Part shown: positions 871 to 59,801 of the stretch, piece after piece
Position numbering within the stretch: position 1 is the first letter of the stretch
How the letters are laid out: every line of letters starts with the position of its first letter
The notes under the pieces: model-generated
The model's database searches: none
Seen by the model: the letters and a program-made list of their open reading frames with translations, nothing else
Told to the model about the DNA's origin: nothing
Virus record (IMG/VR): IMGVR_UViG_3300045988_107529
Span: 1 to 64,000 of that record
Reading direction: 5' to 3' (one strand)
Source of the DNA: a virus
DNA: 64,000 nt
Translations under genes and position numbers: made by a program

Positions 871-1488
871 ATGCAAAGATTAAATAAAGTAAGATTATCC
901 GGAAGAGCCGGGGAAATAGTATTCAGCCACGAGCATTACGGAAGATACTATTACAAATTCATGCTGACAGTCATTCGCAAAAGTGGTGCAGTAGATATGT
1001 TCCCAATCGTTATAGAAGATTCCATTGTACGTGATAACGATTATAACGGAAAAGAAGTTGCGGTAACAGGAGCAATCAGAAGCATGGACACTTCTAAAAA
1101 TCCAAATAAGCACCACAATGTTAATTATATCGCAGCTGATGAAGTAGAAATCCTGGATGAACAGGTTCCAGATGGCGATATAAACAAAGTAGAGTTTATT
1201 GCCAGAAGTTGCACGAAAGAGCCATATGCAAAACTTACATCAGTAACGCACAGAAAAGTTTCAAATCTTTTTGTAGCAATTCCAAGAGAGTATTCAGAAA
1301 GAGCGGATTTTATTCGCTGTACTTTATGGGGAAAAGGTGCTGATCTGGCGGTAGAGGTTAAAAGAAATGATTACATTAAAGTATCTGGCAGATTAATGAG
1401 CCGTGATGTTTATGTTAATGGGGAAGAAACGGAAACAGTATATGAGATTTCCGTAAAAGAAATGGAGAAATTGGAGGATGAAGAATAA
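871..1488 (+). CDS. SSB-like protein with two OB-fold-like halves
   Basis: 205 aa. N-half NKVRLSGRAGEIVFSHEHYGRYYYKFMLTVIRKSGAVDMFPIVI. C-half has the SSB-type motif ADFIRCTLWGKGADLAVEVKRNDYIKVSGRL. Acidic tail EDEE. Confidence 0.6.
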   Translation: MQRLNKVRLSGRAGEIVFSHEHYGRYYYKFMLTVIRKSGAVDMFPIVIEDSIVRDNDYNGKEVAVTGAIRSMDTSKNPNKHHNVNYIAADEVEILDEQVPDGDINKVEFIARSCTKEPYAKLTSVTHRKVSNLFVAIPREYSERADFIRCTLWGKGADLAVEVKRNDYIKVSGRLMSRDVYVNGEETETVYEISVKEMEKLEDEE

Positions 1489-2140: not shown

Positions 2141-4106
2141 GTCTGTAGATTTGTTTCCAAGAACAGAGATTTCCGGCAGAAACAGAGAAGGAAAGTCCAC
2201 ATTGCAGGATGCATATTTGGACGTTTTGACAGGAAAGATGGCAAATGGTACAGAACCGACTTCTATTCGCAGAAAAGAAAATGGCGTGGAAGTGCCAAAG
2301 GTTGATGTTGTAAGAGAACTTACACTTGCGATTGATGGGAAAGAAAAAATGATCCGCAAAATCACAAAGCAGAAGTGGAGAAAACCAAGAGGACAGTCAG
2401 AAGAGGTATTCGATGGAAATGAAACTTCTTATGAAATTGACGGATTCCCGGCTAAATCAAAAGATTATACCGAGTTCATCCAGTCAATAGCAGAACCTTC
2501 AACGCTTCTGATGTGCAGTAATTCAAAAACTTTTCTTGATATTTTACAGAAATCCACTTCGGAAGCCAGAAAAAAGCTTGGGGAGATGGCAGGATTTGAC
2601 GTAAATAAATTTATTTTAGACAATCCTCAATATGTTTCTTTAAGCGAAATAACAAAAGGAAATTCTATAGAAAACACTCTGAAAAAATTAAGAAAAGATT
2701 TAAGAGATCAGAAAAAGAAATGCGATGAAAAAGACACGGAAATCAAGTATGAAACCAATAGAAGTGTTGAAGCGGAAGACACTTCCTCCCTAGAATCCAA
2801 AAAACAGGAGCTTAATGCGGAGCTTTCTAAACTGGAAGAACAGGAACAGATTCTTGAAGATTCGGCAAAAGGCTATGACAGCCTTTCATATGAAATCCGA
2901 GGACTGAAATCTTCCAGGGATGGACTTGTTAGCAAGGCGAATGAATGGTTAAGAGCCAGACAAAAATTCATTTCTGATACATTTTCCGAACTTAAGTTAA
3001 AAAAATCAGAAAAGGAATCAAGCATTCGTATTATTGGAATGGAACTGGATAACCACATAAGAGCTGGACAACAGGCAAAAGCCGACTTGGATAGAGCCAG
3101 ACAGGACTATCCAAGAATAAAAGAAATGGAGTGGGATGATTCTGGACTGAAAGCTATTGAAGTCGAAACATTCAATGATTCTGATACTATTTGCCCGACC
3201 TGTGGACAGGAACTGCCAGATGAACAGATTGCCGAATTGAGAGCTTCCTTTGAAGAAAAGAAGAAGACTAGAATTGAATCACAGTTGAAAGTAAAAGAAT
3301 CCTTTGAATTGGAGAAGCAGGAAAAGCTTAAATATGTCTGCGACCTTGGAAATACTTCCGCTGCAAAATTAAAGAAAACTAACGAGGAAATCAACAAATT
3401 ACAGTCGGAAATTAGCGTAGCACAGGATGAAGTTGCTGAACTCACTAAGCAGATTGAGGAAGAGCAGTCCAAATTTATGGAGCTTCCAGAATCTGTAGAT
3501 ATGACAAATGATGAAGAATATCTTGCGGTTACAGCGAGAATTGCAGAACTTGAAGAGAAACTGAAATCATTTGATGATGTTCCTGGAAAGAAACAGGAAT
3601 TAAGAATGCAGATCAGCAATGTTATGAAACAGATTTCCAATGTGGATGCAGACATTAAGATTGCACAGGCAGCAGTCACAGAGAAAGAAAAGCGAGTAGC
3701 CGAACTGAATAAGGAACTGAAAAGCATTGGACAGGTACAAGCTGATATTGAAAAGAACATTGATACCGTTCTTAACTTCTCAATTCAGAAAAACAAGGCA
3801 CTGGCAGAGAAAATCAATCCATACTTTAAGCATTTCCAGTTCAGTTTCCTTGATTACACGATTGATGGAAATCCAGTGGAAACTTGCAAGATGATCTGTA
3901 ATGGAATCGACTACAACAGCGGATTGAATCATTCCGACAAAATTCTTTGCGAGGTTGATTTACTGAATGGATTACAGGAAATGAATGGGCTAAATCTGCC
4001 GATTTGGATTGATGATTCGGAGAGCATTGACAAAAGTAGAATCCCTATGTTAGACAGGCAGATGATTGTGCTAAGAGTGACAGATGGAGATTTGAAAGTA
4101 ATTTGA
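2085..4106 (+). CDS. SMC/Rad50/RecF-like AAA ATPase with coiled coil
   Basis: 673 aa. Walker A GRNREGKST. Long Glu/Lys-rich coiled-coil middle with the zinc-hook-like CPTCGQELP. C-terminal LPIWIDDSESID (Walker B/D-loop like). Confidence 0.7.
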   Translation: MKVEVKKISLENYKKFPSKSVDLFPRTEISGRNREGKSTLQDAYLDVLTGKMANGTEPTSIRRKENGVEVPKVDVVRELTLAIDGKEKMIRKITKQKWRKPRGQSEEVFDGNETSYEIDGFPAKSKDYTEFIQSIAEPSTLLMCSNSKTFLDILQKSTSEARKKLGEMAGFDVNKFILDNPQYVSLSEITKGNSIENTLKKLRKDLRDQKKKCDEKDTEIKYETNRSVEAEDTSSLESKKQELNAELSKLEEQEQILEDSAKGYDSLSYEIRGLKSSRDGLVSKANEWLRARQKFISDTFSELKLKKSEKESSIRIIGMELDNHIRAGQQAKADLDRARQDYPRIKEMEWDDSGLKAIEVETFNDSDTICPTCGQELPDEQIAELRASFEEKKKTRIESQLKVKESFELEKQEKLKYVCDLGNTSAAKLKKTNEEINKLQSEISVAQDEVAELTKQIEEEQSKFMELPESVDMTNDEEYLAVTARIAELEEKLKSFDDVPGKKQELRMQISNVMKQISNVDADIKIAQAAVTEKEKRVAELNKELKSIGQVQADIEKNIDTVLNFSIQKNKALAEKINPYFKHFQFSFLDYTIDGNPVETCKMICNGIDYNSGLNHSDKILCEVDLLNGLQEMNGLNLPIWIDDSESIDKSRIPMLDRQMIVLRVTDGDLKVI

Positions 4107-4122
4107 TAAACAGGAGGGGAAA

Positions 4123-4569
4123 ATGCTAACAGCAACATGGGGAAAACATTTTTTCAAAGCGGATGCTACAAAATGTGCTTCTGAAATCATGGAAATTTGC
4201 GATCAGATGGAATCTGCTACACCACAGCAGATTCTTGAGAAAGCAAGGGACGAAAGTACAGAATTACATAAGTGCTTCACATGGGATGATTCCATAGCAG
4301 CTGAAAAATACAGAATCCACGAAGCCAGACAGATTGTTTGTCAGTTAAAAATCGTGGAACAGGATATTGACAACAAGTCAAAGCCGACAGCAATTCGAGT
4401 GTTTTACAAGACAGATGGCAAAAGCGGATATAAGCCAACACAGCTTATTTTGAAGCAGCCAGATGAATACGAAGCACTTTTAGAGCGTTGTCGGAATGAA
4501 CTTCTGTCAGTGAAACAGAAATACCAGAATATTTCCGAATACGAAGAAGTTTGGGAACTGATTAATTAA
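4123..4569 (+). CDS. Hypothetical protein (148 aa)
   Basis: SD GGAGGGG upstream of ATG 4123; motif CFTWDDSIAAEKYRIHEARQIV; family not recognised. Confidence 0.6.
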   Translation: MLTATWGKHFFKADATKCASEIMEICDQMESATPQQILEKARDESTELHKCFTWDDSIAAEKYRIHEARQIVCQLKIVEQDIDNKSKPTAIRVFYKTDGKSGYKPTQLILKQPDEYEALLERCRNELLSVKQKYQNISEYEEVWELIN

Positions 4570-4577
4570 ACATGAAT

Positions 4578-5489
4578 GCCGTTACTGTGCTGATATGCCT
4601 GCAAGAGTGGGAACATAATGCAGAACATGACATAACAGGGCACTACAGAACAAGACAGAAAAGAACGTTACACCTTATTCTTGCGGGCTTATGAGTGCAG
4701 TAGCGGCGAAATTCCTATGTTGATATGCCTGTAAAATCGACAGGAAAAATAAGATATAACATCAAAGTAAAGTACAGTACATCATAATTACCCATTTTAC
4801 AGGTTTATGAGCGTAGGAAACCACAGCATTTATCAGTCTGCATAAGCAGAAAGACAGGATAACTCACAACACAACAAAATAAAACAATTCAGTATAGTGC
4901 AGTACCTCTTTCCCTTGTGCAGAGTGATAAGTGTTGTGAACACTTACTATAGGATAAAAATTCTTACAACAGGAAATAATAGCACAGAATAATACACACA
5001 GCACTTAACGGATGGGCTGTTTTGTAGGCGGTATAAATCGTCAGGACAGAACACTACAGTACAACACAATACAAAACACAACATATGACTTTTATATCGT
5101 CTATAAAGCAGTCCTCCGAAATTGAATATTGGGTAGGTGACATGAAAAAATGTCGCAAAATATTAAAGCGCAGAAAAATATAACATAGAACAGAGTAGAA
5201 TAGCACAGCACAGCACAATTCATGTTGCCTACCGAGTGTTCAACTCAACCAGATGTATTTAGTTGGCAGTAGAAACTGTCATAATAGGAAACCATAAAAT
5301 CTTATATGTGAGAACAAAATAATACAGTAAACAATAGCACAACACAAGACAAGCTTTCTACTGCTTGCTAAGTACATTTGGAGTTTGTATGAAGATTCAA
5401 GCGGATTAGTTTCGCAAAACATTACAATATACGATATGACAAAATAGCATAAGACAGTATAAAACAAAACTAGCGTTACTAACCTGCTT
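4578..5489 (+). ncRNA. Array A: eight tandem long imperfect hairpins (candidate structured RNA family, + strand)
   Basis: Units 4578-4707, 4712-4819, 4822-4938, ~4961-5028, 5030-5098, 5132-5233, 5234-5398, 5399-5489. The closing helices differ in sequence but stay paired. Example: 5249-5275 with 5355-5381 gives 22 WC, 4 G.U and 1 mismatch. Loops are A/C-rich and share ATAGCAC-type motifs. No credible ORF. Confidence 0.6.
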
Positions 5490-5493
5490 GAAT

Positions 5494-5505
5494 GTTTGTA
5501 CAAAC
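5494..5505. promoter_or_regulatory. Perfect palindrome GTTTGTACAAAC between array A and gene 5547
   Basis: 12-nt palindrome followed by an A-rich tract and SD TAGGAGGA. Operator or small hairpin; function unknown. Confidence 0.3.
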
Positions 5506-5546
5506 AAAAATAATAAAAAATCATTTTATTTTAGGAGGAACGCAAC

Positions 5547-6224
5547 ATGGCAAAAAACATCACTATCGAACCTTTAAAGGAAACCACATTAAGAGTTGAG
5601 TTAATCGGGGACACAGACCTCATTCTTCACAAGAGAAGCCGTTACTATGAACAGGCTGAATGCTTCAAGCAGTCCAAGGACAAGGGCTTCAAAATGCCAG
5701 CTATTTACAATCAGCCAAAGAATGTTTGGGAGGGCTTAATTACTGGTATTCACTGGGAGAAACCTATTAATTTCCATGATGAAGATATTTCCCTTTACAC
5801 AGAGGAAGAGTGGAAAGATTACATGGAAAACAACAGACCTTGCATTCTTACACAGGCATTCAAGAAATCATTCACAGAAACATTTATTACTTTCTTCAAG
5901 GATTCCACAGGAAAGAAAGGAACAGATATCAAGCGTTCTCTTTCAATCGAAGGTTCTATTTGCCCGGTAAATTTTGAATCTGTTGAGGTGGTAAATAAGA
6001 TCGTTCCGACTTCTGGAATCAGTGCAAGCCCGGTTCTTTGTAGTAGTAACGTTTTCCATAACTGGAGAACCACTATTGAGGTATCTTGCCCGGACATTGT
6101 ATTTCCATATGAGACAGTATTGCAGCTGATTGAAACCAGTGGAAAGTACATCGGAATCGGAACACAGAGAGCAAACGGAAACGGCAGATATCACATCAAC
6201 CCGGACAATGTGACTATCATTTAA
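5547..6224 (+). CDS. Orphan protein (225 aa) flanked on both sides by the hairpin arrays
   Basis: Strong SD. No family recognised. Gly-rich C-terminal motif GKYIGIGTQRANGNGRYHI. Confidence 0.7.
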   Translation: MAKNITIEPLKETTLRVELIGDTDLILHKRSRYYEQAECFKQSKDKGFKMPAIYNQPKNVWEGLITGIHWEKPINFHDEDISLYTEEEWKDYMENNRPCILTQAFKKSFTETFITFFKDSTGKKGTDIKRSLSIEGSICPVNFESVEVVNKIVPTSGISASPVLCSSNVFHNWRTTIEVSCPDIVFPYETVLQLIETSGKYIGIGTQRANGNGRYHINPDNVTII

Positions 6225-6234
6225 TTTGGTAACT

Positions 6235-6603
6235 ATCGGTGGTATATGAATCCGGGTGAATGCCCGGAAAGTACAGTAAGAAAAATAACAGAATATCATA
6301 GCACGTGACACGACATTAAATTCATTCTGTTTCGTATGCCACCGATCATAACTCTTTGGTGCATTCACGGTGGATTGAAAATTTACAAATTATGTAAGCC
6401 AGAAGATAGAAAATAAAACAGAAGGGCAAAACATGATAGCCAAAAACATATTTTCAATCTACTGCGCGTGCACCCAAGAAAATAAATAAAACCTTAGGTG
6501 TATTCACGATGGGATAATATGACACATCGAAAATAGGACAGCACATATCATTATAGGAAACTACAGAACATTACATATTATCTCATTTTGAATGCACCTA
6601 AGG
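6235..6603 (+). ncRNA. Array B: three further hairpin units of the same family
   Basis: Units 6235-6346 (16-bp helix, 2 G.U), 6354-6478 (~28-bp helix) and 6492-6603 (30-bp helix: 26 WC, 3 G.U, 1 mismatch). Loops are A/C-rich with ATAGCAC/ATAGGAC motifs. Confidence 0.6.
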
Positions 6604-6626
6604 CAAAAAAGAAAAGGAGAATTAAT

Positions 6627-7736
6627 ATGGCAGAAACAACACAGGTAGCAAATTTTAACACACAGCTTTCCTACTACACAAATCGTTATGTCGATTTAAT
6701 GGAAAGAGATTTAACTTCAAGAGGAATGGAATTTGATTCCTACTCAAAGGATTGCGTAGTGGCAGCAATGGGATCTATTTTCCAGATGGTGCATGAGAGT
6801 GGAGTGAGTTTTGAAGCAATCAATGGTTCTAACCTTAAATTCATTCTGAGCAAAGTAGCAGCATTGAAGCTGAACGCAAATGCGCAGCCGAGAGAATGTT
6901 ATTTCCAGATCAGAAACGTAAATATAGCGGCGAAAGGGCAGAAACCTCAGTGGGAGAAGAAAATCGAATTTGCGATTGAGGGCGATGGAAATGACGCTCT
7001 TGTAAGTAGATATGGTGTCGATGTAGCTAAAGTATTCCCGTACTGGAAAGTCAGAGAAGGTGATAAGTATATCCCACCAAGACATAAAGGTGTGGAAATC
7101 ACACCGCCAGAATGGGAAGAATCTGGTGTAGGTAAGGTAGTCCGTATCGTATATCCGATTCAGTATAAGGACGGACATATTGAATATCTTTCTTGTGAAA
7201 GAGCAGATGTACTGAAGAATCTTGCAGCACACATCAAGAATAATCTCCAGAATGAAACATTTGGAATTTGTGCAGACAGATATAAAGCTACAGATGTGCA
7301 GAAAGCTCAAATTGAAGCAAAGAAAAAAGAAATCATGAAAAAGGTCGCTGACATTGGAGAAATGGAAGCAATCATTGACTGTGAGGAATTAAGACCGTAT
7401 ATTTCACCGTCTTATTATGAAACACAATCCAGAGAATCAATGATTATTCGTAAGATGCGAAACAACATTATGAAGTCTATTCCTAAGAGATGGGACAATC
7501 CAGTGCAGGCTTACGAATACAACATGATGGATGCCACATACAGAGAAGTACAGGAAGAAATCGAGCAGAACGCCAATTCAGAAGAATTTATCCCAGACGA
7601 GCCAGCGGAAATCGAAGAACAGCCTAAACATCCAACAGTCGCAGAAGTTGTAAAGACCGCCGAGAAAGAACAAGTTCCGGCAGCAGAGCCAGTGGAAACA
7701 GAAATTCCGTCATTTATGAGCCAGGAGGAAATGTAG
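6627..7736 (+). CDS. RecT-like single-strand annealing protein
   Basis: 369 aa from ATG 6627 (SD AAAGGAGA). The track start 6588 lies inside hairpin unit 11. Core ILSKVAALKLNANAQPRECYFQIRN .. IEGDGNDALVSRYG resembles RecT-family motifs. Acidic C-terminal tail. Confidence 0.55.
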   Translation: MAETTQVANFNTQLSYYTNRYVDLMERDLTSRGMEFDSYSKDCVVAAMGSIFQMVHESGVSFEAINGSNLKFILSKVAALKLNANAQPRECYFQIRNVNIAAKGQKPQWEKKIEFAIEGDGNDALVSRYGVDVAKVFPYWKVREGDKYIPPRHKGVEITPPEWEESGVGKVVRIVYPIQYKDGHIEYLSCERADVLKNLAAHIKNNLQNETFGICADRYKATDVQKAQIEAKKKEIMKKVADIGEMEAIIDCEELRPYISPSYYETQSRESMIIRKMRNNIMKSIPKRWDNPVQAYEYNMMDATYREVQEEIEQNANSEEFIPDEPAEIEEQPKHPTVAEVVKTAEKEQVPAAEPVETEIPSFMSQEEM

Positions 7737-30405: not shown

Positions 30406-30478
30406 TGGGCTATCGCCAAACGGTTAAGGCACAGCACTTTGACTGCTATATTTGCTGGTTCGAATCCAGTTAGCCCAG
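30406..30478 (+). tRNA. tRNA-Gln (anticodon UUG)
   Basis: Cloverleaf by hand. Acceptor tgggcta/tagccca (U1-A72), D gcc/ggc, anticodon loop ctTTGac, T-arm gctgg-ttcgaat-ccagt. No encoded CCA. Confidence 0.75.
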
Positions 30479-30628
30479 TTTGCGGTTTTGCTAACGCCGC
30501 AAGTTCATTTTATAACACTCTTTTCTGAAATCTAAAAGCGTTTCAGAAAACCTTTGTTGCGGTTGGTGGTCAAGAACTGCAACAGTGCCGGATTGTTTGT
30601 CATGGCGGTCAAATAATTCGGTATCTTA

Positions 30629-30701
30629 GGAAGCTTAGTTCAGCGGTAAGAGCAACGGCCTCATAAGCCGTAAGTCCTGGGTTCGAATCCCAGAGCTTCC
30701 A
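30629..30701 (+). tRNA. tRNA with CAU anticodon (Met or Ile2)
   Basis: Acceptor ggaagct/agcttcc, anticodon arm acggc-ctCATaa-gccgt, T-arm ctggg-ttcgaat-cccag. Confidence 0.85.
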
Positions 30702-31222
30702 TTTCTTCTAAATGCCATTCATCCGTAATATGGGTGGAAAAAACTTCCAGTTGAGCGTGTGGATTAGGTAAATTTATAGGTGCGATACGGCGTAGCCTAA
30801 ATGGATCTGATTTCCCGGCTGGTATATCTCGGAGTTAAAAACATTAACGCAGCGCACGTTAATAAAAGGAGTTTTCAAGAGATGCCGTTCAAAGACGCAT
30901 AAAAATATCCAGTGAATCTACAGCACTAAAACTTGTAGATAGTGGAAAGCATAACACGATAAACCTATTGCTAACCCGGAAGAACCGGGTTATTCGGAAA
31001 GTGCAAGTAACTGGGAACGGGCTAGTCGACTAGGTCTTGATGGTTCGAATCCATCCTTTCCGATTGTTTGGAGACTGAAAGTTTGGTGGTAGGAAAAGCA
31101 CAGAGCAGTGCGTAGGAATGTATAACCGAGTTCCGAATACGTACTGTTTATCGGTGATATAGTGACTTCCTCTAGTAGTCAATAAGTGAACGTGCTGAAA
31201 TGGTTCTTCCAAACATGTACAT
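30702..31222 (+). ncRNA. Densely structured non-coding spacer inside the tRNA cluster (candidate large ornate RNA or processed spacers)
   Basis: Hairpins at 30715-30737, 30843-30863, 30916-30940, 30973-30991 and 31106-31146. Possible long-range pairing tgtttgga (31066) with tccaaaca (31207). No credible ORF. Confidence 0.4.
30995..31063 (+). ncRNA. tRNA-like element 1 (acceptor stem plus T-arm, no canonical D or anticodon arm)
   Basis: Acceptor cggaaag/ctttccg, T-arm gatgg-ttcgaat-ccatc. The centre is the hairpin ctag-tcga-ctag with a 4-nt loop. Only 69 nt. Confidence 0.45.
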
Positions 31223-31294
31223 AGCAGGATAGAGAAGCGGAATCTCGCATGGCTCATATCCATGAAAACGGCGGTTCGAATCCGTCTCCTGCTA
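31223..31294 (+). tRNA. tRNA with CAU anticodon (second copy; Met/Ile2)
   Basis: Acceptor agcagga/tcctgct, D gaga/tctc, anticodon arm catgg-ctCATat-ccatg, T-arm ggcgg-ttcgaat-ccgtc. Confidence 0.8.
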
Positions 31295-31353
31295 TTCCAT
31301 CTACCAAGTGTAGATAGGAAATATGACTTTAGCATAGCTATTGTTGGTTTTTA

Positions 31354-31467
31354 GACGAGGCAGCTCAATTGGACAGAGCAATGAGAATATTAGTCATGTT
31401 TGTGACTATAACAGCAATTTACTCCATTACAAGGCATAGGTTGGTGGTTCGAATCCATCCCTCGTCA
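31354..31467 (+). ncRNA. tRNA-like element 2 (114 nt; canonical acceptor, D and T arms, expanded centre)
   Basis: Acceptor gacgagg/cctcgtc, D-arm gctc-aattggaca-gagc, T-arm ggtgg-ttcgaat-ccatc. About 60 nt of extra sequence includes the hairpin agtca-TGTTTG-tgact. Confidence 0.45.
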
Positions 31468-31468
31468 C

Positions 31469-31559
31469 TGCCCCGGTTATCGGTTACGGAAAACCGATTA
31501 GAACATGTTTGTGTTCTTCACTGCAAATAATTTTATAGGTTCAAATCCTGTCGGGGCAA
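31469..31559 (+). ncRNA. tRNA-like element 3 (91 nt; acceptor plus T-arm, two non-canonical hairpins)
   Basis: Acceptor tgccccg/cggggca, T-arm atagg-ttcaaat-cctgt, hairpins atcggtt/aaccgat and agaaca-TGTTTG-tgttct. Shares CATGTTTGTG with element 2 (31395 and 31504). Confidence 0.45.
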
Positions 31560-31653
31560 TTATGTGATGCTTACAGCAATCATTTTGGACATAACTGCTA
31601 AATTATGAAACCCAAAAGCATCATGAAATTTATGGGACGCTTACAGCAACTCA
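31560..31653 (+). repeat. Two ~23-nt direct repeats TTATGKGAYGCTTACAGCAAYYCA upstream of the vWA gene
   Basis: 31560-31582 and 31630-31653, 70 nt apart; followed by an AT-rich -10-like region. Confidence 0.6.
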
Positions 31654-31712
31654 CTTAAATAAAATCTAATTCGTATATTTTATATTTTTTGTGTCCTGAA
31701 AGGAGAAGAAAC

Positions 31713-33164
31713 ATGGATTTTGCAAATGCAATGAAGGAAGAAAGCAAGTTTACAAGAACTGAAAACGGAGCAGTTGCGCTGAATACTACAAGTGATGCAA
31801 GACTTGACCTGTTCGGAACTATTGGTGCATTGAGAGAAGCTGATGAAAATAGAATCACCACTTTATTCTCAGAAGCATTTGCACAGGATAAACTTTTTGC
31901 CACAAAGATTGCTTTTTATGCAAGAGATATTCGTTGTGGGCTTGGAGAGAGAAAAACTTTCCGAACCATTATCCGCTACATGGCTGAACATCATCCAGAA
32001 GCACTCAGACCGAATCTTGATTTAATTGGAGTATTCGGGAGATACGATGATCTGTATGAACTGATTGAAACACCACTTGAAGATGACATGTGGAAATCTA
32101 TGAAGAAACAATTTGAGGAAGATTTGAAAAATCTCAATGATGGAAAAGCAATTTCTTTACTTGCTAAATGGATTAAGACTGCTGATGCAAGTAGCAGAGA
32201 AACTAGGAAGTTAGGAATCTTGACTGCACAGAAGTTGGGTTATCCAGTCTACAACTTTAAGAGAATTGTTCGTAGCATGAGAAAACAGATCGGTGTTGTT
32301 GAAAGCCTTATGTCTGCCGGTAAATGGAATGAGATTAAATATCCAGAAGTTCCGAGCCGTGCAATGATGATTTATCGCAAGGCCTTTGCAAAACATGATC
32401 CAGATGGATTTAATGATTTTATTAATAAGGCTGATAAAGGAGAAGTTAAAATCAACGCTTCAACTTTGTATCCTTATGACATCGTGGAAAAAATCCTTTA
32501 CGGAAGAGAAAACAACAAAGTTCTTGAAGCACAGTGGAAAGCACTTCCAGATTATGTTGAACAGGGAACAAACGCACTCATAATGGCGGACGTATCTGGC
32601 TCAATGTATGGAAGACCAATGGCAACATCAATTGGACTAGCTATATATTTTGCCGAGAGAAACACAGGCGCATATCATAATCTTTTTATGACTTTCTCGG
32701 CAAATCCACAGATTGTTACTTTGAAAGGAGAAACACTTTTTCAAAAGGTGAGAAATGTTAATAAGGCAGACTGGGGAATGAATACAAACCTCAAAGCAGC
32801 ATTCGAGAAAGTTCTTGATATTGCTGAAAAGAACAATATTTCACAAGAACAAATGCCAAAAGCTATCGTTGTAATTTCCGATATGGAAATTGATCGTTGC
32901 GGAAATAAGGACTGGTCTTTTTATGACAAAATGGAAAGTAAGTTTCGCAAAGCCGGATATGTTATTCCAAACATTATTTTCTGGAATGTCGAAAGCAGAC
33001 ATGATGTATTCCACGCGGACTCTACAAGGAAAGGCGTACAGCTTGCAAGTGGTCAGTCGGTGACAGTGTTCAAACAGGTGTTACAGAATCTTGGATACAA
33101 TCCAATTGAAGCTATGGAGAACACGATCAATTCGGAAAGATACAATTGTATTACTGTCGAATGA
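31713..33164 (+). CDS. DUF2828-like helical domain plus vWA/MIDAS domain protein (Ro60-like architecture)
   Basis: 483 aa from ATG 31713 (SD AAAGGAG). N-terminal FTRTENGAVALNTTSDARLDLF resembles the DUF2828 start as I recall it. C-terminal IMADVSGSM .. VVISDMEID is MIDAS-like. Confidence 0.55.
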   Translation: MDFANAMKEESKFTRTENGAVALNTTSDARLDLFGTIGALREADENRITTLFSEAFAQDKLFATKIAFYARDIRCGLGERKTFRTIIRYMAEHHPEALRPNLDLIGVFGRYDDLYELIETPLEDDMWKSMKKQFEEDLKNLNDGKAISLLAKWIKTADASSRETRKLGILTAQKLGYPVYNFKRIVRSMRKQIGVVESLMSAGKWNEIKYPEVPSRAMMIYRKAFAKHDPDGFNDFINKADKGEVKINASTLYPYDIVEKILYGRENNKVLEAQWKALPDYVEQGTNALIMADVSGSMYGRPMATSIGLAIYFAERNTGAYHNLFMTFSANPQIVTLKGETLFQKVRNVNKADWGMNTNLKAAFEKVLDIAEKNNISQEQMPKAIVVISDMEIDRCGNKDWSFYDKMESKFRKAGYVIPNIIFWNVESRHDVFHADSTRKGVQLASGQSVTVFKQVLQNLGYNPIEAMENTINSERYNCITVE

Positions 33165-33224
33165 AACAAAAGTGAAAACCATCTCAGTTCCTTTGAAAAG
33201 AACTGTCCGTGACAGGCGGCAATA

Positions 33225-33296
33225 TGAAACATAGCTCAGTGGTAGAGCAATGATACTCAATATCATGTGACACAGGTTCGATTCCTGTTGTTTCTA
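33225..33296 (+). tRNA. tRNA with UCA anticodon (opal-suppressor/Trp-UGA type), atypical C33 and U1.U72
   Basis: Acceptor tgaaaca/tgtttct, D gctc-agtggta-gagc, anticodon arm atgat-acTCAat-atcat, T-arm acagg-ttcgatt-cctgt. Confidence 0.55.
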
Positions 33297-33414
33297 TCTG
33301 GCAAATTGCCATTGCCAGAAGTTGCATTTTCCCCCTTAAAGTTCCAGTGTTTCTCGTTGGGAGATTCATGCCGTTCAAGTCGGCACACTGGATTTTTCTA
33401 AATCGAGGTAATTT

Positions 33415-33564
33415 ATGAAAGAAAAATGTTGCAAGAATTGCAGAAGACATGATGACTTCACATGGGTTTGTTTCAATGGTGATAGCGAATATTGCGCAGA
33501 CTTTACGGAGCCAGAGTGTTATTGTGAGTTTTGGGAGAGAAAAGAAGATGGAGATATGTGGTAA
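33415..33564 (+). CDS. Small Cys-rich protein (49 aa)
   Basis: ATG after GAGGT. MKEKCCKNCRRHDDFTWVCFNGDSEYCADFTEPECYCEFWERKEDGDMW*. Preferred over the overlapping 5' part of track ORF 33449. Confidence 0.5.
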   Translation: MKEKCCKNCRRHDDFTWVCFNGDSEYCADFTEPECYCEFWERKEDGDMW

Positions 33565-33715
33565 AGAAATAAAAGACGAATGTTCAAACTGCGGAAATAT
33601 CCTTGAATGCGAATTGTTCCGTCAAGGGCATGGAATAAAACAGGAACGTGAAAACATAGCTAAAATGATTGCCTGTCAGATGAAGCACAGGGAGAGAAGG
33701 GAATTTGAATGCTAA
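33548..33715 (+). CDS. Small Cys-rich protein (55 aa)
   Basis: MEICGKEIKDECSNCGNILECELF... Confidence 0.45.
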   Translation: MEICGKEIKDECSNCGNILECELFRQGHGIKQERENIAKMIACQMKHRERREFEC

Positions 33716-33984
33716 ATTTACTTGATAAACGCAATTGCCCTGTTTGCGGTGGAATATTGAAATGTGAAAATGCCGATTTCACAAACCCTTTTATAGAAAA
33801 AGGACTCTTTTTAAATGTGACATGGCAATGCACCAATTGCGGCGCTGAATATACTGCAAAACTTGAATTAACCCCAAACGGATATGAGTTGCAAGACCGT
33901 GAAGCACATATTGATGTAGAGGATAATTTTTCAGCCGAAAAATTTATGCTTGGAAGAGACAATTTTCGAAGACAGAGGTGGTAA
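33709..33984 (+). CDS. Zinc-ribbon protein (91 aa)
   Basis: CPVCGG ... CTNCG. Confidence 0.55.
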   Translation: MLNLLDKRNCPVCGGILKCENADFTNPFIEKGLFLNVTWQCTNCGAEYTAKLELTPNGYELQDREAHIDVEDNFSAEKFMLGRDNFRRQRW

Positions 33985-33986
33985 AT

Positions 33987-34310
33987 ATGAAATTTGAGGA
34001 TATGGCAAACTGGACAGAGGAACAGCTAAAAAAAGAGGTTGTGAGACTATCTGAAGAATGTGAGAAGAAGCAGCATATAATCCTGGACTATGAAGCTTTA
34101 TCGGAGACAATTAACCAAAAGCTTCTTGAAAATGATAACTGGAAGATTCCGATTGATGGAATTGAAAATGTAGATACTGGTCATCCATCTATAGAATGGT
34201 ATGAACAACGCCACCAGGATGACTGTATTAGAATCAACGAGTTAACTGTTACTGTTGACACTCTGGTTGACCGATATGCTAATTTAAGGAAAAATAAAGG
34301 AATGTGCTGA
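33987..34310 (+). CDS. Hypothetical protein (107 aa)
   Basis: ATG after GAGGTGG. Confidence 0.55.
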   Translation: MKFEDMANWTEEQLKKEVVRLSEECEKKQHIILDYEALSETINQKLLENDNWKIPIDGIENVDTGHPSIEWYEQRHQDDCIRINELTVTVDTLVDRYANLRKNKGMC

Positions 34311-34311
34311 T

Positions 34312-34608
34312 ATGGGTGAAAAGGACAAGTTAAGACGCTTATTTATAGGAGATGGGGAAACAGCCATATCGGGAATACCAGAATTTCCAGGAGATTTAAT
34401 TGCTTATGCATTACAGACTTTTGAGACACAAGATAATTCTGTTATCTTCGCAGGAAAATCACTTGAATTTGAAACCGAATTTAAACTCACTAAAGAAAAC
34501 GCTTTGCTCTTTGCTTTTCCAGAACGAATAAATCAGAATAATTTCCGAAAAATGCATGGCATTCCAAAGCGGAGGAAAATTAATGGTACCAGGAAACGCA
34601 GATTATGA
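34312..34608 (+). CDS. Hypothetical protein (98 aa)
   Basis: Intact ORF. Confidence 0.55.
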   Translation: MGEKDKLRRLFIGDGETAISGIPEFPGDLIAYALQTFETQDNSVIFAGKSLEFETEFKLTKENALLFAFPERINQNNFRKMHGIPKRRKINGTRKRRL

Positions 34609-34834
34609 CCTTGACGGAGCTTTATTGCGTGATGAAGCCGTATATCTAAAGAAACTACATTCAGAGTATCTAGTATGCGATGATTTAAAGATTGGAAATA
34701 TTGAACCAATATCAAAAGAAGTGTTGAACAATATAGAAATCACACAAAACAAAAAGATTGTTTATGGAACTTTTGGAACATTTTCCATTAATGATTTGCC
34801 AAAGCAATTGAGGGAGAAAATTAATGAGTATTAA
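34583..34834 (+). CDS. Hypothetical protein (83 aa)
   Basis: ATG after GGAGGAAAA. Confidence 0.5.
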   Translation: MVPGNADYDLDGALLRDEAVYLKKLHSEYLVCDDLKIGNIEPISKEVLNNIEITQNKKIVYGTFGTFSINDLPKQLREKINEY

Positions 34835-35057
34835 GTCAGCATTAGAATCCGAAGGAATAGATTTTTCTGAATACATGAACCCACCAGAACCATGGAATGG
34901 ACAGGCATTAATACGGAATATCAATGGAACGAAATACGCCTGTTGTCCTTTTTGCCAGAAGAAAGCGCTTCTGATTAGCCCAAACACGAAGATTCAGCAC
35001 TTGAAACTGAAATGTAAGGGTAGTAATTGCAAGAAAGAGTTTGAGGTGAATGTATGA
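34824..35057 (+). CDS. Zinc-ribbon protein (77 aa)
   Basis: CCPFC ... CKGSNC. Confidence 0.55.
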   Translation: MSIKSALESEGIDFSEYMNPPEPWNGQALIRNINGTKYACCPFCQKKALLISPNTKIQHLKLKCKGSNCKKEFEVNV

Positions 35058-35233
35058 ACACAAAACGGATTAAATGTATTTTGACAGGTGGATGCAAGTT
35101 CAAAAGTTCGGATACAGAATCGAAATGCAATGATAAAGAAAAGACTTGCACCATTACAGAAACTTGCTACAAATGTGGGAAGAAGTACACTGCCGTATTT
35201 ACCTACAAACAATTAGGGATTCCAGTGAGGTGA
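35054..35233 (+). CDS. Small Cys-rich protein (59 aa)
   Basis: ATGA overlap; SD GAGGTG. Junction GAGGTGAATGTATGAA is repeated at the next gene start. Below the track cut-off. Confidence 0.5.
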   Translation: MNTKRIKCILTGGCKFKSSDTESKCNDKEKTCTITETCYKCGKKYTAVFTYKQLGIPVR

Positions 35234-35237
35234 ATGT

Positions 35238-35519
35238 ATGAATTGGTTTAAAGAAAAATGTTCCCACCTATATGAGGAAATTGGGAAATGCTATGACAGA
35301 ATAGATTACGGAAATGGTACTCATATAAATGCTTATATTGTAAAAAAATGCAAAATATGCGGAAATATTACAGCCAAGACTGTATATTCAAATGAATTTA
35401 CAAAGTATACATCTCCTGTAAGAGTTGATGATTGTGTAAAAAAACTGATAGCTAAAGGATATGTTGACAAGGTTGATTTCTTTTTGGAACACGAAAATGA
35501 TAATATACCGTGGAAATAA
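35238..35519 (+). CDS. Hypothetical protein (93 aa) with CKICG motif
   Basis: Same GAGGTGAATGTATGAA junction. Confidence 0.55.
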   Translation: MNWFKEKCSHLYEEIGKCYDRIDYGNGTHINAYIVKKCKICGNITAKTVYSNEFTKYTSPVRVDDCVKKLIAKGYVDKVDFFLEHENDNIPWK

Positions 35520-35534
35520 ATGGAGGTCTATTGA

Positions 35535-35729
35535 GTGAAGAAGGCAAGAAAAATATGTTGGATAATTGCGAATTTCATAATATTCAAATGGGCAGCAGAT
35601 TATTTGATAGCCACAATTCAAATGATGGTTGAAAATAATTGGGGATTTTCGGCAGTACCATTACTGTTTATGGCAGTATTCGCAGAATGGAAAGTAATTG
35701 AAAATATTTTTACGGAATTAAGAAGATGA
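35535..35729 (+). CDS. Small membrane protein (64 aa, GTG start)
   Basis: SD GGAGG; two hydrophobic segments. Confidence 0.5.
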   Translation: MKKARKICWIIANFIIFKWAADYLIATIQMMVENNWGFSAVPLLFMAVFAEWKVIENIFTELRR

Positions 35730-35750
35730 TTTTATCAAGAAAGGATATGT

Positions 35751-35954
35751 ATGACAAAACAAGAAGCCGTAGTAGTTGAAACCTACACAGGAATTTGTAT
35801 GCTTGTAGGAGATGATCGCCGACTTGCATATGAATATGCAGAAAAACTTTTAGGTCATCCGATATATACGCATGAATTCCCAAAGTATGTCGACGAGTTA
35901 AAAAAACTTAGCAAGCCAGATTTTATTGAAATTTGCAAAAAGTTAAGCGATTAA
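35751..35954 (+). CDS. Hypothetical protein (67 aa)
   Basis: Intact ORF. Confidence 0.55.
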   Translation: MTKQEAVVVETYTGICMLVGDDRRLAYEYAEKLLGHPIYTHEFPKYVDELKKLSKPDFIEICKKLSD

Positions 35955-36116
35955 ATGGTATGGTGCGAATTAAGAAACATTCCGTGCATACATCCAGAAC
36001 CAGATGGATTAGAAAATTGCAGATATTGTGAAAAATATAGTTTTGAAAAATATTTAGAATACAAAAAATCAAAAAGAAAAGTCAAGAGAGCCAAAAAGGA
36101 GCGCCATTATGAGTGA
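35955..36116 (+). CDS. Small Cys-rich basic protein (53 aa), tentative
   Basis: MVWCELRNIPCIHPEPDGLENCRYCEKY..; weak SD; overlaps the rtcB start. Confidence 0.3.
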   Translation: MVWCELRNIPCIHPEPDGLENCRYCEKYSFEKYLEYKKSKRKVKRAKKERHYE

Positions 36117-59540: not shown

Positions 59541-59801
59541 TTTTTGACTGATTGTGTGGTATGATTTCTTTAATGAAGAAGTACACACGGTTTTGATTTT
59601 TGAGCCGCTAAGAAGAAATTAATATTTCTCGATTTTGAGGAATTTTTATCTTACTTGGCGGCTCTTTTTTATTTTAACCGTTAATTTTGGTAAAACCAAC
59701 AGGCTAGACCGATCATCGAAAAGCGGAAATGCCTTGCCGCCTGCCTGTTGATTTACATACAGTTCAAGGCACTCTTTTATACGAAAGGCAGGTATCAATC
59801 T

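What the first reader, a model, noticed from the sequence alone, without database searches (positions are those of the whole stretch)
4578..5489. Eight tandem long hairpins with strand-specific G.U covariation fill a 0.98-kb gap that has no ORF
The gap between genes 4123-4569 and 5547-6224 resolves into eight consecutive stem-loops. Their closing helices have unrelated sequences but stay paired. Unit 1 pairs gccgttactg with cagtagcggc, then gcctgcaaga with tcttgcgggc. Unit 3 pairs cacagcatttat with ataagtgttgtg. Unit 6 pairs ggtaggtgacatg with catgttgcctacc. Unit 7 pairs 5249-5275 with 5355-5381 (22 WC, 4 G.U, 1 mismatch). Nearly all non-WC positions are G.U on the + strand and would be A.C on the - strand. 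This points to a + strand RNA, or + strand ssDNA with G.T. The enclosed 45-75 nt loops are G/T-poor and A/C-rich. They are homologous to each other, with recurring AAAATA, ACAG and ATAGCAC(A) blocks. Conserved loops on diverged, compensated stems is the reverse of a CRISPR or type III toxin-antitoxin array, and I do not recognise it as a described RNA class. Units 4 and 5 (about 68-69 nt) have much weaker stems. Possible roles are a multi-copy sRNA or protein-sponge family, RNase III-type processing modules, a transcribed origin/primer RNA, or RNA partners of the embedded protein.
Basis: partly seen in the sequence, partly recalled or inferred. Interest (0 to 1): 0.85.

Follow-up and report, generated by a model that had tools for sequence, protein, structure and literature searches.

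The report
Phage VIPR guide-RNA array, ACA-type
The hairpins are an array of eleven guide RNAs for the small Cas7-like protein encoded among them: a phage 'VIPR' system, a class first described in 2026, that reads other phages' genes two bases out of every three, here in a variant with a different fixed RNA motif and a hairpin around each guide.

Summary
The hairpins are real and strand-specific. The + strand folds at -291 kcal/mol (z -16) and the - strand at -234 (z -4). In 263 distinct stems, G.U outnumbers A.C 1054 to 175.

Each 42-72 nt loop is a run of 9-15 in-phase pentamers A-Y-A-N-N; CA recurs 2.8x at lags 5/10/15/20 and 0.1x at lags 4/6. Such tracts occur nowhere else in the 64 kb.

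The embedded 225-aa protein (5547-6224) has a Cas7/Csm3 RAMP fold with the G-loop GIGTQRANGNG. It is a remote homologue of the SUSP1 Vipr protein. This matches VIPR systems (bioRxiv 10.64898/2026.04.26.720920): one protomer per pentamer, with NN pairing to DNA and one target base skipped.

Only the 1-nt-skip rule finds targets:
- U7: family A DNA polymerase genes (28/30).
- U4: a phrog_2513 gene (21/22).
- U10 and U11: alternative RecT alleles of sibling phages.
All targets are in frame, with the skipped base at the wobble position.

It differs from the published text in three ways: the fixed triplet is AYA rather than GGY, each guide sits inside a ~29-bp stem, and the arrays hold 10-11 guides.

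The parts
4123..4569 (+). p148, a candidate accessory (Vap-like) gene of unknown fold that lies upstream of the array
   Evidence: A homologue lies upstream on the same strand, separated from vipr by the array, in all 61 loci of this clade where both genes could be mapped. The same holds in 79 of 80 loci of a second Vipr clade, including 50 non-sibling phages at 35-49% identity. It matches phrog_15946 but no Pfam family. The AF2 model has pLDDT 70 and no PDB fold match. It shows no similarity to SUSP1 vap1.
4578..4707 (+). vrRNA module U1: a 32-bp stem around a pentamer tract at about 4615-4679. Guide NN = AT GA TG TA GG CT GA AG GA GA TT (CC).
   Evidence: The stem is conserved in 31 orthologues while the loop is swapped. 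No target was found.
4712..4819 (+). vrRNA module U2: a 25-bp stem around a tract at 4744-4803
   Evidence: It is a paralogue of U1 in its stem (direct repeats D3 and D6).
4822..4938 (+). vrRNA module U3: stem plus a tract at 4849-4908
4939..5009 (+). vrRNA module U4: a tract at 4944-4998 with no stem of its own, which can pair 4997-5009 with the U3 3' arm (4926-4938). Guide NN = CT GG AA TC CA GG TA GC GA AT CA.
   Evidence: Pentamer tract. Alternative stem. Natural targets match 21/22, in frame, in a phrog_2513 gene of six IMG/VR phages, L227 and L229-L233.
5009..5118 (+). vrRNA module U5: a 32-bp stem and the cleanest ACA-NN tract (about 5041-5090)
5122..5243 (+). vrRNA module U6: a 24-bp stem around a tract at 5140-5224
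5249..5381 (+). vrRNA module U7: a 31-bp stem around a tract at 5269-5353. Guide NN = TA GG CC AA TT TG GA AA AT GT CA GC AC AG AG.
   Evidence: The core 12-NN string (GG...AC) parsed from the loop is identical in 15 loci, carried on 4 different loop sequences. Targets lie in family A DNA polymerase genes: 28/30, 28/30 and 26/30 in L224-L226, and 26-28/30 in four Clostridia genome contigs.
5383..5505 (+). vrRNA module U8: a 29-bp stem around a tract at 5414-5473
   Evidence: The 18-base core has no IMG/VR match.
5547..6224 (+). vipr-like gene (p225): a stand-alone Cas7-family RAMP with the G-loop G203-I-G-T-Q-R-A-N-G-N-G213
   Evidence: AF2 model pLDDT 89.1. The top 50 Foldseek PDB hits are all Csm3/Cmr4/Cas7 subunits, E 7e-7 to 3e-4. 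The G-loop is invariant across the family. hhalign against SUSP1 Vipr gives E 1.9e-5. Proteins found with its profile are phmmer E 1e-36 matches to SUSP1 Vipr.
6235..6346 (+). vrRNA module U9: stem plus a tract at 6268-6322
6353..6479 (+). vrRNA module U10: a 27-bp stem. Guide NN = AT GT CC AG GA TA CA GG AA TG GC AA.
   Evidence: It matches 21/24, in frame, in the alternative RecT allele (phrog_561) of L024 and L036.
6492..6603 (+). vrRNA module U11: a 29-bp stem. Guide NN = AT AA GG GC TA TT GG CT GA TT. Its 3' arm overlaps the first possible start codon of recT (TTG at 6588).
   Evidence: It matches 19/20, in frame, in the alternative RecT allele (phrog_148) of L011-L014, L019, L026, L046 and L056.

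Best explanation
The region 4123-6603 is a VIPR (Viral Interference Programmable Repeat) locus. It consists of a candidate accessory gene (p148), seven or eight guide-RNA modules, the vipr gene (p225, a stand-alone Cas7-like RAMP), and three more guide modules.

Proposed mechanism:
- Transcription of the + strand, together with the flanking recombination genes, gives an RNA in which each module is a ~29-bp hairpin.
- The loop of each hairpin is 9-15 in-phase pentamers A-Y-A-N-N.
- By homology with the SUSP1/P. fulva systems, one Vipr protomer binds each pentamer. It sequesters the fixed triplet and presents the two variable bases.
- The filament then reads double-stranded DNA by pairing NN with two target bases and skipping the third (NNx)n. 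The skipped base falls on codon wobble positions.
- The guides are aimed at essential or regulatory genes of competing phages: family A DNA polymerase, a phrog_2513 protein, and rival RecT alleles of sibling phages. Binding presumably silences these genes.

Shown here: the RAMP fold and Vipr homology, the pentamer code, the exclusivity of the 1-nt-skip rule, in-frame natural targets for 4 of 11 guides, and no self-targets.

Inferred from the preprints or from sequence alone: that the RNAs are made and processed, that p225 binds them, that the outcome is repression, that the stem serves as a processing or capping element (possibly cut by RNase III), that p148 is an accessory factor, and that the change from GGY to AYA is caused by the G-loop change DWR to TQR.
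For: (1) Pentamer code.
- CA autocorrelation is 2.8x at lags 5/10/15/20 and about 0.1x at lags 4/6/9/11 over 261 distinct loops; shuffled loops give about 1.0.
- The phase logo is A 74%, C/T 76%, A 90%, N, N.
- Tracts with at least 6 of 9 in-phase A[CT]A pentamers occur at 10 sites in the 64 kb. All are in these loops on the + strand and none on the - strand; 0.05 are expected from shuffles.

(2) Protein.
- AF2 model pLDDT 89. All top 50 Foldseek hits are Cas7-family subunits.
- The G-loop GxGxxxxxGxG is invariant.
- hhalign against SUSP1 Vipr gives E 1.9e-5 and 77% probability.
- Transitive phmmer link of E 1e-36.

(3) The bona fide SUSP1 locus that I retrieved has the same layout: guide tracts on both sides of a ~195-aa vipr gene.

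(4) Targeting rule. 229 guides (at least 9 NN, one per distinct loop) were tested against 577 kb of related loci. Only skip = 1 beats the shuffled-NN controls (match >=0.85: 12 vs 2; >=0.9: 6 vs 0). Skip 0 and skip 2 show no excess.

(5) Natural targets.
- The 18-base core of U7 gives 3 IMG/VR hits, all extending to 26-28 of 30.
- In genome contigs the U7 core gives 19 hits. Fifteen are at the chance level (1-5 of 12 outside the core). Four score 8-10 of 12, and all four are PolA genes in Clostridia.
- U4: 6 of 7 hits reach 21/22.
- U10 and U11 hit alternative RecT alleles.
- Every target is in frame with the skipped base at codon position 3, and the skipped bases differ synonymously between target phages.
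- Negative control: U1 core hits in metagenomes do not extend.

(6) No window guide matches the window itself better than the controls do.

(7) The fixed triplet co-varies with the G-loop. Relatives with GxG-DWR carry GGC/GGT-NN tracts in 68 of 80 loci. Clades with GIG-TQR or GIG-SGR carry ACA/ATA-NN. D177/W178/R179 are the GGY-reading residues in the cryo-EM preprint.
Against: - There is no expression, processing or binding data for this locus.
- The fixed triplet (AYA) is not among those listed in the preprint: YNNGG, NNNGG, YNNNG, NNNNG.
- There is no 3' tail or pseudoknot. Instead each tract is closed into a loop by a long stem, which is hard to reconcile with the extended helical filament seen by cryo-EM unless the stem is cut or opened.
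- Direct sequence similarity to SUSP1 Vipr is limited to the C-terminal ~96 residues, at 77% hhalign probability.
- Seven of the eleven window guides have no identified target. Exact-pattern scans found nothing for U1 and U8; U2, U3, U5, U6 and U9 were checked only by mismatch-tolerant searches of the sequence held locally, not by scans of public collections.
- Taken alone, the 19/20 match of U11 has a chance expectation of about 0.4 over all guides tested. Its weight comes from the codon phase, its location and the control comparison.
- p148 has no recognisable DNA-binding fold.
Confidence: 0.88

Rival explanations
1. The array is a DNA-level element of the replication/recombination module. 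The hairpins extrude on single-stranded + strand DNA as an origin, primosome or single-strand initiation sites, or as loading sites. The periodic A-Y-A loops are bound by the phage SSB-like or RecT proteins, with about 5 nt per protomer.
For: The array sits between two SSB-like genes, an SbcC/Rad50-like gene and RecT. G.T wobble is also tolerated in DNA hairpins. A 5-nt period would fit a filament- or ring-forming ssDNA-binding protein (from my own knowledge, not tested).
Against: - The array always travels with the RAMP gene and p148. RecT is replaced by unrelated alleles, and in other phages the SbcC and RecT neighbours are absent altogether.
- The variable NN strings match coding sequences of foreign phages in frame. 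An origin has no reason to do this.
- The homologous SUSP1 elements are RNAs bound by Vipr.
Confidence: 0.04
2. The hairpins are chiefly RNase III processing or stability modules of the polycistronic early transcript, or a decoy/sponge for a host RNA-binding protein or for an ACA-specific toxin. On this view the loop periodicity is unrelated to guiding.
For: Stems of ~29 bp are classical RNase III substrates (established knowledge). The modules lie between cistrons. The loops are unstructured and A-rich with repeated ACA.
Against: This does not explain the strict single-phase pentamer register. It also does not explain the co-variation of the fixed triplet with the RAMP G-loop, the wholesale replacement of loops between phages whose flanking genes are 94-100% identical at the nucleotide level, or the skip-1 matches to foreign genes. 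Processing by RNase III is compatible with the main explanation and is probably part of it.
Confidence: 0.05
3. It is a RAMP-guided system of VIPR ancestry that acts on RNA or cleaves its target, rather than repressing DNA transcription.
For: The closest solved structures are Csm3/Cmr4, the RNA-targeting backbone subunits of type III complexes. The outcome of binding was not tested here.
Against: In all seven independent natural targets the guide has the same sense as the coding strand. It therefore cannot pair with the mRNA and must pair with the template DNA strand. No nuclease gene is adjacent, and p148 has no nuclease fold match.
Confidence: 0.03

Closest known systems
VIPR systems, type II exemplars of Escherichia phage SUSP1 and a Pseudomonas fulva prophage (bioRxiv 10.64898/2026.04.26.720920; structures in 10.64898/2026.04.26.720927)
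   Same: - Phage-encoded.
- A small stand-alone RAMP (Vipr) flanked on both sides by intergenic guide RNAs.
- Guides made of 9-16 tandem pentamers with three fixed and two variable bases.
- The 1-nt-skip target rule, with the skipped base on codon wobble positions.
- Targets in competing phages and in relatives' own loci, and no self-targets.
- A C-terminal G-loop and detectable sequence homology.
   Different: - The fixed triplet is A-Y-A (mostly ACA or ATA) instead of GGY. The G-loop residues that read GGY (D177, W178, R179) are T206, Q207, R208 here.
- Each tract is the loop of a ~29-bp hairpin, instead of being followed by a conserved 3' tail with a pseudoknot.
- There are 10-11 guides per locus, against 4 in SUSP1.
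- The neighbouring small gene (p148) is unrelated to vap1.
- All targets found lie on the sense strand.
- The host is a gut Bacillota/Clostridia-type organism, inferred from target-bearing genomes and from strong Shine-Dalgarno sites.
Class 1 CRISPR-Cas backbone (Cas7/Csm3/Cmr4 filaments on crRNA)
   Same: The RAMP fold of the RNA-binding subunit. One protomer binds per fixed-length RNA segment, and bases are displaced periodically (6-nt period in class 1; established knowledge).
   Different: There is no repeat-spacer array, no cas1/cas2 and no other cas genes, and Rfam finds no CRISPR repeat. The period is 5 with only 2 of 5 bases pairing. The guides are hard-wired in the phage genome rather than acquired.
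TRAP (trp RNA-binding attenuation protein) binding site: 11 (G/U)AG triplets separated by 2-3 nt
   Same: An RNA made of a triplet plus a 2-nt spacer, repeated about 11 times and read by an oligomer with one subunit per repeat. This was my first analogy, from memory, before the literature search.
   Different: TRAP is a ring of a different fold. Its spacers carry no information, and it regulates its own operon. Here the 'spacers' are the information.
   Same: Tandem non-coding RNA modules next to a protein gene in a mobile element.
   Different: There are no identical direct repeats and no endoribonuclease toxin gene. The repeated unit is 5 nt within each module, and the modules differ in stem sequence.

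Membership tests
VIPR system | A Vipr protein: a stand-alone RAMP (RRM core, glycine-rich loop, thumb) that is not part of a CRISPR-Cas locus | tested here: met
   - The top 50 Foldseek hits are all Cas7-family subunits.
- The G-loop G-I-G-x5-G-x-G is invariant.
- hhalign against SUSP1 Vipr gives E 1.9e-5; the transitive phmmer link is E 1e-36.
- No CRISPR repeats or cas genes were seen around it.
- The thumb was not inspected residue by residue.
VIPR system | vrRNAs in the intergenic regions flanking vipr, each made of about 9-16 tandem pentamers with conserved and variable positions | tested here: met
   Eleven tracts of 9-17 in-phase pentamers lie on both sides of the gene.
VIPR system | The conserved positions are GGY or one of the listed variants (YNNGG, NNNGG, YNNNG, NNNNG) | tested here: not met
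   The fixed triplet is A (74%), C/T (76%), A (90%), and G is rare at these positions. The same holds in a second clade of 80 loci. The preprint's list is; its figure S17 could not be seen.
VIPR system | A conserved structured 3' tail (pseudoknot in the SUSP1 clade) capping the repeat tract | tested here: not met
   Instead, a ~29-bp stem formed by both flanks encloses each tract. This is also so in the second ACA clade: median 27 enclosing pairs, and 72 of 89 tracts have at least 15.
VIPR system | Non-contiguous target recognition: NN pairs with the target and one target base is skipped | tested here: met
   Only skip = 1 is enriched over shuffled controls. In-frame natural targets were found for U4, U7, U10 and U11 and for three sibling guides. 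This evidence is bioinformatic only.
VIPR system | An accessory vap gene next to vipr | tested here: inconclusive
   p148 is syntenic in all 61 loci of this clade where both genes could be mapped and in 79 of 80 loci of the second clade. It has no similarity to vap1, no Pfam family and no fold match.
VIPR system | vrRNAs are expressed, co-purify with Vipr, and repress matching DNA targets | not testable with these tools
   This needs sRNA-seq, pull-down and reporter assays.
CRISPR-Cas | A repeat-spacer array with near-identical direct repeats, plus an adaptation module (cas1/cas2) | tested here: not met
   There are no such repeats in 4400-6700 and no Rfam CRISPR family in the window. The neighbouring genes are SSB, SbcC-like, RecT and an MBL hydrolase.
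Phage replication origin or single-strand initiation site | Iterons or hairpins that act at the DNA level and carry no foreign sequence information | tested here: not met
   The loops carry strings that match foreign coding sequences in frame. The array co-segregates with the RAMP gene, not with replication genes.

The most novel reading that the evidence does not exclude
This is a VIPR lineage that the two preprints do not describe. It is widespread in human-gut and other phages of Bacillota. The protein-read triplet of the pentamer code has switched from GGY to AYA, together with a G-loop change from DWR to TQR/SGR, which shows that the scaffold half of the code is evolvable and that orthogonal VIPR systems can coexist.

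In this lineage each guide is a self-contained hairpin cassette. Its conserved arms may serve for processing and, at the DNA level, as homology arms for swapping guides between phages. The arrays of 10-11 guides include guides that exclude sibling phages carrying a different RecT allele.
Probability: 0.5. Interest if true: 0.8.

Novelty: new variant of a known kind. Interest (0 to 1): 0.72.

Why it matters
VIPR is a newly reported way of recognising DNA with RNA. It uses a single ~20-25 kDa protein and a guide in which only 2 of every 5 bases carry information. This locus adds four points:
- The principle is not tied to the GGY scaffold. A large clade uses ACA/ATA, with matching changes in the residues that read the scaffold. 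That bears on how the code evolved, and it would give orthogonal protein/scaffold pairs for engineering.
- Guides can be packaged as hairpin cassettes in long arrays.
- Its natural targets read like a map of phage-phage competition in the gut: a conserved DNA polymerase motif hit regardless of synonymous variation, and rival RecT alleles of otherwise near-identical phages.
- For annotation, long 'empty' intergenic regions next to small unannotated genes in phage recombination modules can be recognised by a simple lag-5 periodicity test.

Tried and rejected
- **Rfam.** At gathering threshold it finds only four tRNAs and int-alpA elsewhere in the window. At E<=10 the region gives only weak eukaryotic miRNA-precursor hits, meaning generic long hairpins.
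- **INPHARED.** blastn of 4100-6700 against the phage collection: no match.
- **Hidden ORF under a recoded stop.** I considered this because a UGA-suppressor-like tRNA is present. No convincing + strand frame appears.
- **Protein-binding ring or sponge (TRAP-, Hfq-, Rho-, RecT- or SSB-like) and MazF decoy.** These were my working ideas once the 5-nt period appeared. I dropped them when the RAMP fold and the foreign targets emerged.
- **Sibling guides against this window.** No excess for skip 0-2. The skip-3 excess came from orthologous loops matching themselves.
- **Guides against the 7-27 kb region of 80 sibling genomes.** No excess.
- **Cores of U1 and U8 in IMG/VR.** No hits.
- **Core of U1 in metagenomes.** Four hits that do not extend beyond chance and are mostly out of frame. 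These are useful as a negative control.
- **p148.** No Pfam family, no PDB fold match, no similarity to vap1.
- **Integron attC-like or Chi-site readings of the stems.** Considered from memory and not pursued. There is no shared core motif among the stems.
Full report
**1. What is in the sequence**

The interval between the genes at 4123-4569 and 5547-6224 has no ORF longer than 83 codons in the standard bacterial code. Recoding a single stop codon does not open a plausible + strand gene.

The + strand folds into seven long hairpins at 4578-4707, 4712-4819, 4822-4938, 5009-5118, 5122-5243, 5249-5381 and 5383-5505. Three more follow the 225-codon gene at 6235-6346, 6353-6479 and 6492-6603. The stems have 24-32 pairs interrupted by single mismatches, and the loops are 42-72 nt.

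Folding energy is strongly strand-asymmetric: -291.2 kcal/mol (z -16.4) for the + strand against -233.8 (z -4.0) for the - strand. Over 263 distinct stems collected from this phage and 61 relatives there are 1054 G.U pairs against 175 A.C mismatches.

**2.

The loops are not merely A-rich. They are tandem degenerate pentamers held in a single register across the whole loop.

- In 261 distinct loops (median 62 nt), the dinucleotide CA recurs 2.8-fold more often than expected at lags 5, 10, 15 and 20, and about 0.1-fold at lags 4, 6, 9 and 11. Shuffled loops give about 1.0.
- The phased logo is A (74%), C/T (76%), A (90%), N, N.
- Tracts with at least 6 of 9 in-phase A[CT]A pentamers occur at ten places in the 64-kb window. 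All ten are in these loops on the + strand and none on the - strand, with 0.05 expected from shuffles.
- The 'weak' unit at 4939-5008 carries such a tract. It has no stem of its own but can pair 4997-5009 with the 3' arm of the preceding unit.

**3. Comparison with relatives**

The 225-aa protein retrieves 62 IMG/VR loci in three identity tiers: ~100%, ~89% and ~69%. All of them have arrays of 5-7 hairpins upstream of the gene, and most have 1-3 downstream.

The intergenic DNA is only 76-89% identical to the window even where the flanking genes are 94-100% identical. Unit-by-unit alignments show why: orthologous stems are almost invariant, and their changes are mostly G-C/G-U or A-U/G-U. The enclosed loops are replaced in both sequence and length.

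For unit 1, 98.6% of cells are paired, against 30-54% when the partners are slid. Only 4 of 29 pairs show double changes. This is the reverse of 'conserved loops on diverged stems'; that description holds only between paralogous units within one genome.

Among closely related loops, pentamer position 3 (the 90% A) is nearly immutable, at 0.65% differences against 2.5-10% at the other positions.

**4. The embedded protein**

p225 has no Pfam family, and all its database homologues are 'hypothetical'.

- Its family alignment has an invariant C-terminal motif, GKYIGIGTQRxNGxGRY. This is the G-hydrophobic-G-x5-G-x-G glycine-rich loop typical of RAMPs.
- An AlphaFold model (pLDDT 89.1, pTM 0.82) gives Foldseek hits to the PDB in which the top 50 are all Cas7-family backbone subunits. 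These are Csm3 of several type III-A complexes, Cmr4, type VII Cas7 and Cas7-11, with E 7e-7 to 3e-4 and probability 1.00.

**5. Literature**

[quoted passage not shown] A follow-up search on 'vrRNA' and 'VIPR' found its structural companion (10.64898/2026.04.26.720927).

They describe VIPR systems as follows:

- Phage-encoded ~20-kDa RAMP proteins (Vipr), usually with one accessory gene (vap).
- These genes are flanked by intergenic ~100-nt vrRNAs made of 9-16 tandem pentamers, with a conserved GGY and hypervariable NN, plus a structured 3' tail.
- One protomer binds each pentamer and sequesters GGY.
- The NN dinucleotides pair with double-stranded DNA while every third target base is skipped, usually a codon wobble base.
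- Natural targets are competing phages, satellites and other VIPR loci.
- Seven types are reported. The repeat variants named in the text are YNNGG, NNNGG, YNNNG and NNNNG.

**6. Test of homology to a bona fide Vipr**

I retrieved phage SUSP1 (KT454805). My repeat scan found the published architecture on its - strand: one YNNGG tract upstream of a 195-aa gene, a 146-aa gene, then three tracts.

- A profile of the p225 family aligns to SUSP1 Vipr over the C-terminal ~96 residues, including an F..W motif and the G-loop (hhalign E 1.9e-5, probability 77%).
- The same profile, searched against 1.84 billion representative proteins, finds 203 proteins at E<=1e-3. Several of them (P0191, P0244, P0229, P0255) are phmmer E 1e-36 to 1e-32 matches to SUSP1 Vipr.

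p225 therefore belongs to the Vipr superfamily by fold, by motif and by transitive sequence similarity.

**7. Test of the targeting rule**

I took the NN dinucleotides of each loop in its A-Y-A register (229 guides with at least 9 NN, one per distinct loop). I searched them against 577 kb of related loci plus the window, with the detected hairpin units masked, allowing 0-3 skipped bases. The controls had the order of the dinucleotides shuffled.

- Only the 1-nt-skip model exceeds the control: 12 against 2 at >=85% match, and 6 against 0 at >=90%.
- Skip 0 and skip 2 show nothing.
- The skip-3 excess is an artefact of arrays that were not masked.

The hits are coherent:

- The guide of window unit U11 (AT AA GG GC TA TT GG CT GA TT) matches 19 of 20 positions in ATgAAgGGcGCtTAtTTgGGcTTgGAtTT. 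This site lies inside a different RecT-like allele (phrog_148) that replaces the window's RecT (phrog_2185) in eight sibling phages.
- U10 matches 21 of 24 positions in a third RecT allele (phrog_561).
- Guides from other siblings hit these alleles as well.

All of these sites are on the coding strand and in frame, so the skipped base is codon position 3.

**8. Targets outside the family**

*U7.* An exact scan of IMG/VR with the central nine dinucleotides of U7 (18 specified bases) returned three contigs.

- In all three the match extends over the whole 15-dinucleotide guide: 28/30, 28/30 and 26/30.
- The skipped positions differ between targets as synonymous changes, and the encoded peptide is YGPK[F/L]CENIVQA[I/L][S/A]R.
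- The gene is a family A DNA polymerase (PF00476 at 8.7e-23; phrog_17 at 2e-153).
- The window has no homologue of this gene.

The same pattern in one genome per prokaryotic species gave 19 hits with a bimodal extension:

- Fifteen are at the chance level, with 1-5 of the 12 outside positions matching.
- Four score 8-10 of 12. All four are PolA genes in Bacillota/Clostridia assemblies: Ruminococcus, Christensenellales, Clostridiales and a Bacillota bacterium.

*U4.* The core of U4, the unit without its own stem, gave seven IMG/VR hits. Six extend to 21/22, in frame, near the C-terminus of a ~215-aa phrog_2513 protein of unknown function.

*Controls.*

- The cores of U1 and U8 gave no IMG/VR hits.
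- The four metagenome hits of the U1 core do not extend and are mostly out of frame.
- No window guide matches the window itself better than shuffled controls do.

**9. How general the variant is**

- A second Vipr clade has about 29% identity to p225 and the G-loop GFGIGIGSGRSSGYGRYHV (alignment A4). It was fetched as 80 loci out of 238 confirmed IMG/VR matches.
- In that clade, 73 of the 80 loci carry period-5 tracts, and the recurring triplet is again ACA.
- These tracts are also enclosed by long stems: median 27 enclosing pairs, with 72 of 89 tracts having at least 15.
- In 29 of these loci the phage is a sibling of the window phage. There p148 is mostly 98-99% identical while vipr is swapped for the 29%-identity allele.
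- A p148 homologue lies upstream, on the same strand and across the array, in 79 of the 80 loci. Fifty of these are non-sibling phages at 35-49% identity. p148-array-vipr is therefore a conserved module.
- p148 itself has no Pfam family, no PDB fold match and no similarity to vap1.

As a positive control and a contrast, 80 loci of Vipr relatives whose G-loop reads GxG-DWR carry GGC/GGT-NN tracts in 68 cases.

In the cryo-EM preprint, D177, W178 and R179 of that loop read the GGY bases. The aligned residues of p225 are T206, Q207 and R208. The correlation is shown here. That these residues cause the change of triplet is my inference.

**10. Mechanism, and what remains inferred**

I conclude that 4123-6603 is a VIPR locus in which eleven hairpin-enclosed pentamer tracts are guide RNAs for p225. 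The steps taken from the preprints and not tested here are:

- transcription and processing of the guides;
- assembly of one protomer per pentamer;
- pairing to the template DNA strand with one base skipped;
- transcriptional silencing as the outcome.

The role of the stems is open. They may be RNase III processing sites that release individual guides from the operon transcript. They may act as a cap equivalent to the 3' pseudoknot of type II vrRNAs. Because they are more conserved than the flanking genes while the loops are swapped, they may also serve as homology arms for exchanging guide cassettes.

A closed loop is difficult to reconcile with the extended helical filament seen by cryo-EM, so the stem is probably cut or opened.

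All seven independent targets found are sense-strand. This rules out mRNA pairing. It differs from the both-strand usage reported for type II, but the sample is small.

**11. Verdict**

The class became known in 2026.

The locus fails two of the features described for published VIPRs: the GGY-type scaffold and the 3' tail. It meets the protein, the architecture and the targeting-rule features. I therefore file it as a new variant of a known kind, with one reservation: I could not see figure S17 of the preprint, which shows the repeat logos of the other six types.

Noticed in passing
window 30406-33296: A cluster of four tRNA genes: Gln-TTG, two Met-CAT, and one with anticodon TCA that ARAGORN labels SeC. 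The last would read UGA, so it may be a suppressor and hint at stop-codon recoding in part of this phage.
   Followed up: partly
window 59697-59769 (+): A match to Rfam family int-alpA RNA (RF02996) at 45.4 bits, above the gathering score of 35.8. It lies just upstream of the ORF at 59748-60170.
   Followed up: no
window 6588-7736, and L011:4952-5785, L024:4987-5799, L006:5042-6028: The RecT-like annealing-protein gene is an allelic cassette. Sibling phages whose flanking genes are 85-100% identical carry at least three other RecT-like versions (phrog_2185 here; two phrog_148 versions of 277 and 328 aa, and phrog_561, elsewhere). The guides just upstream target the alleles the phage does not itself carry.
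   Followed up: yes
L089, L098-L114 and others, compared with window 4123-6224: The vipr gene is itself swapped between sibling phages. In most of 29 such loci, p148, SbcC-like and RecT are 83-99% identical to the window, but the RAMP gene is only 29% identical to p225.
   Followed up: partly
window 871-1488 and 1478-2140: Two adjacent, overlapping paralogous genes encode SSB-like proteins. Each has an N-terminal extension of about 100 residues ahead of the OB fold (phrog_26861 / PF00436).
   Followed up: no
window 6588 (TTG) against 6492-6603: The first possible start codon of recT lies inside the 3' arm of hairpin U11. tblastn alignments to relatives begin at residues 5-23, so the true start is probably further downstream.
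   Followed up: no
window 33164-36109: A stretch of about 3 kb following the tRNA cluster has no ORF of 120 codons or more on either strand. It holds no A-Y-A pentamer tract.
   Followed up: no
L262:3786-4083, L271:1863-2338: In GGY-type relatives, some tracts run for 300-475 nt with the pentamer register shifting by one base every 10-14 repeats. These look like the 'staggered arrays with overlapping vrRNAs' mentioned in the preprint.
   Followed up: no
window 4697-4701 (in the 3' arm of U1): The pentamer AGCGG (the Bacillus subtilis Chi sequence, from memory) is invariant in all 31 orthologues of unit 1. This is probably coincidental.
   Followed up: no
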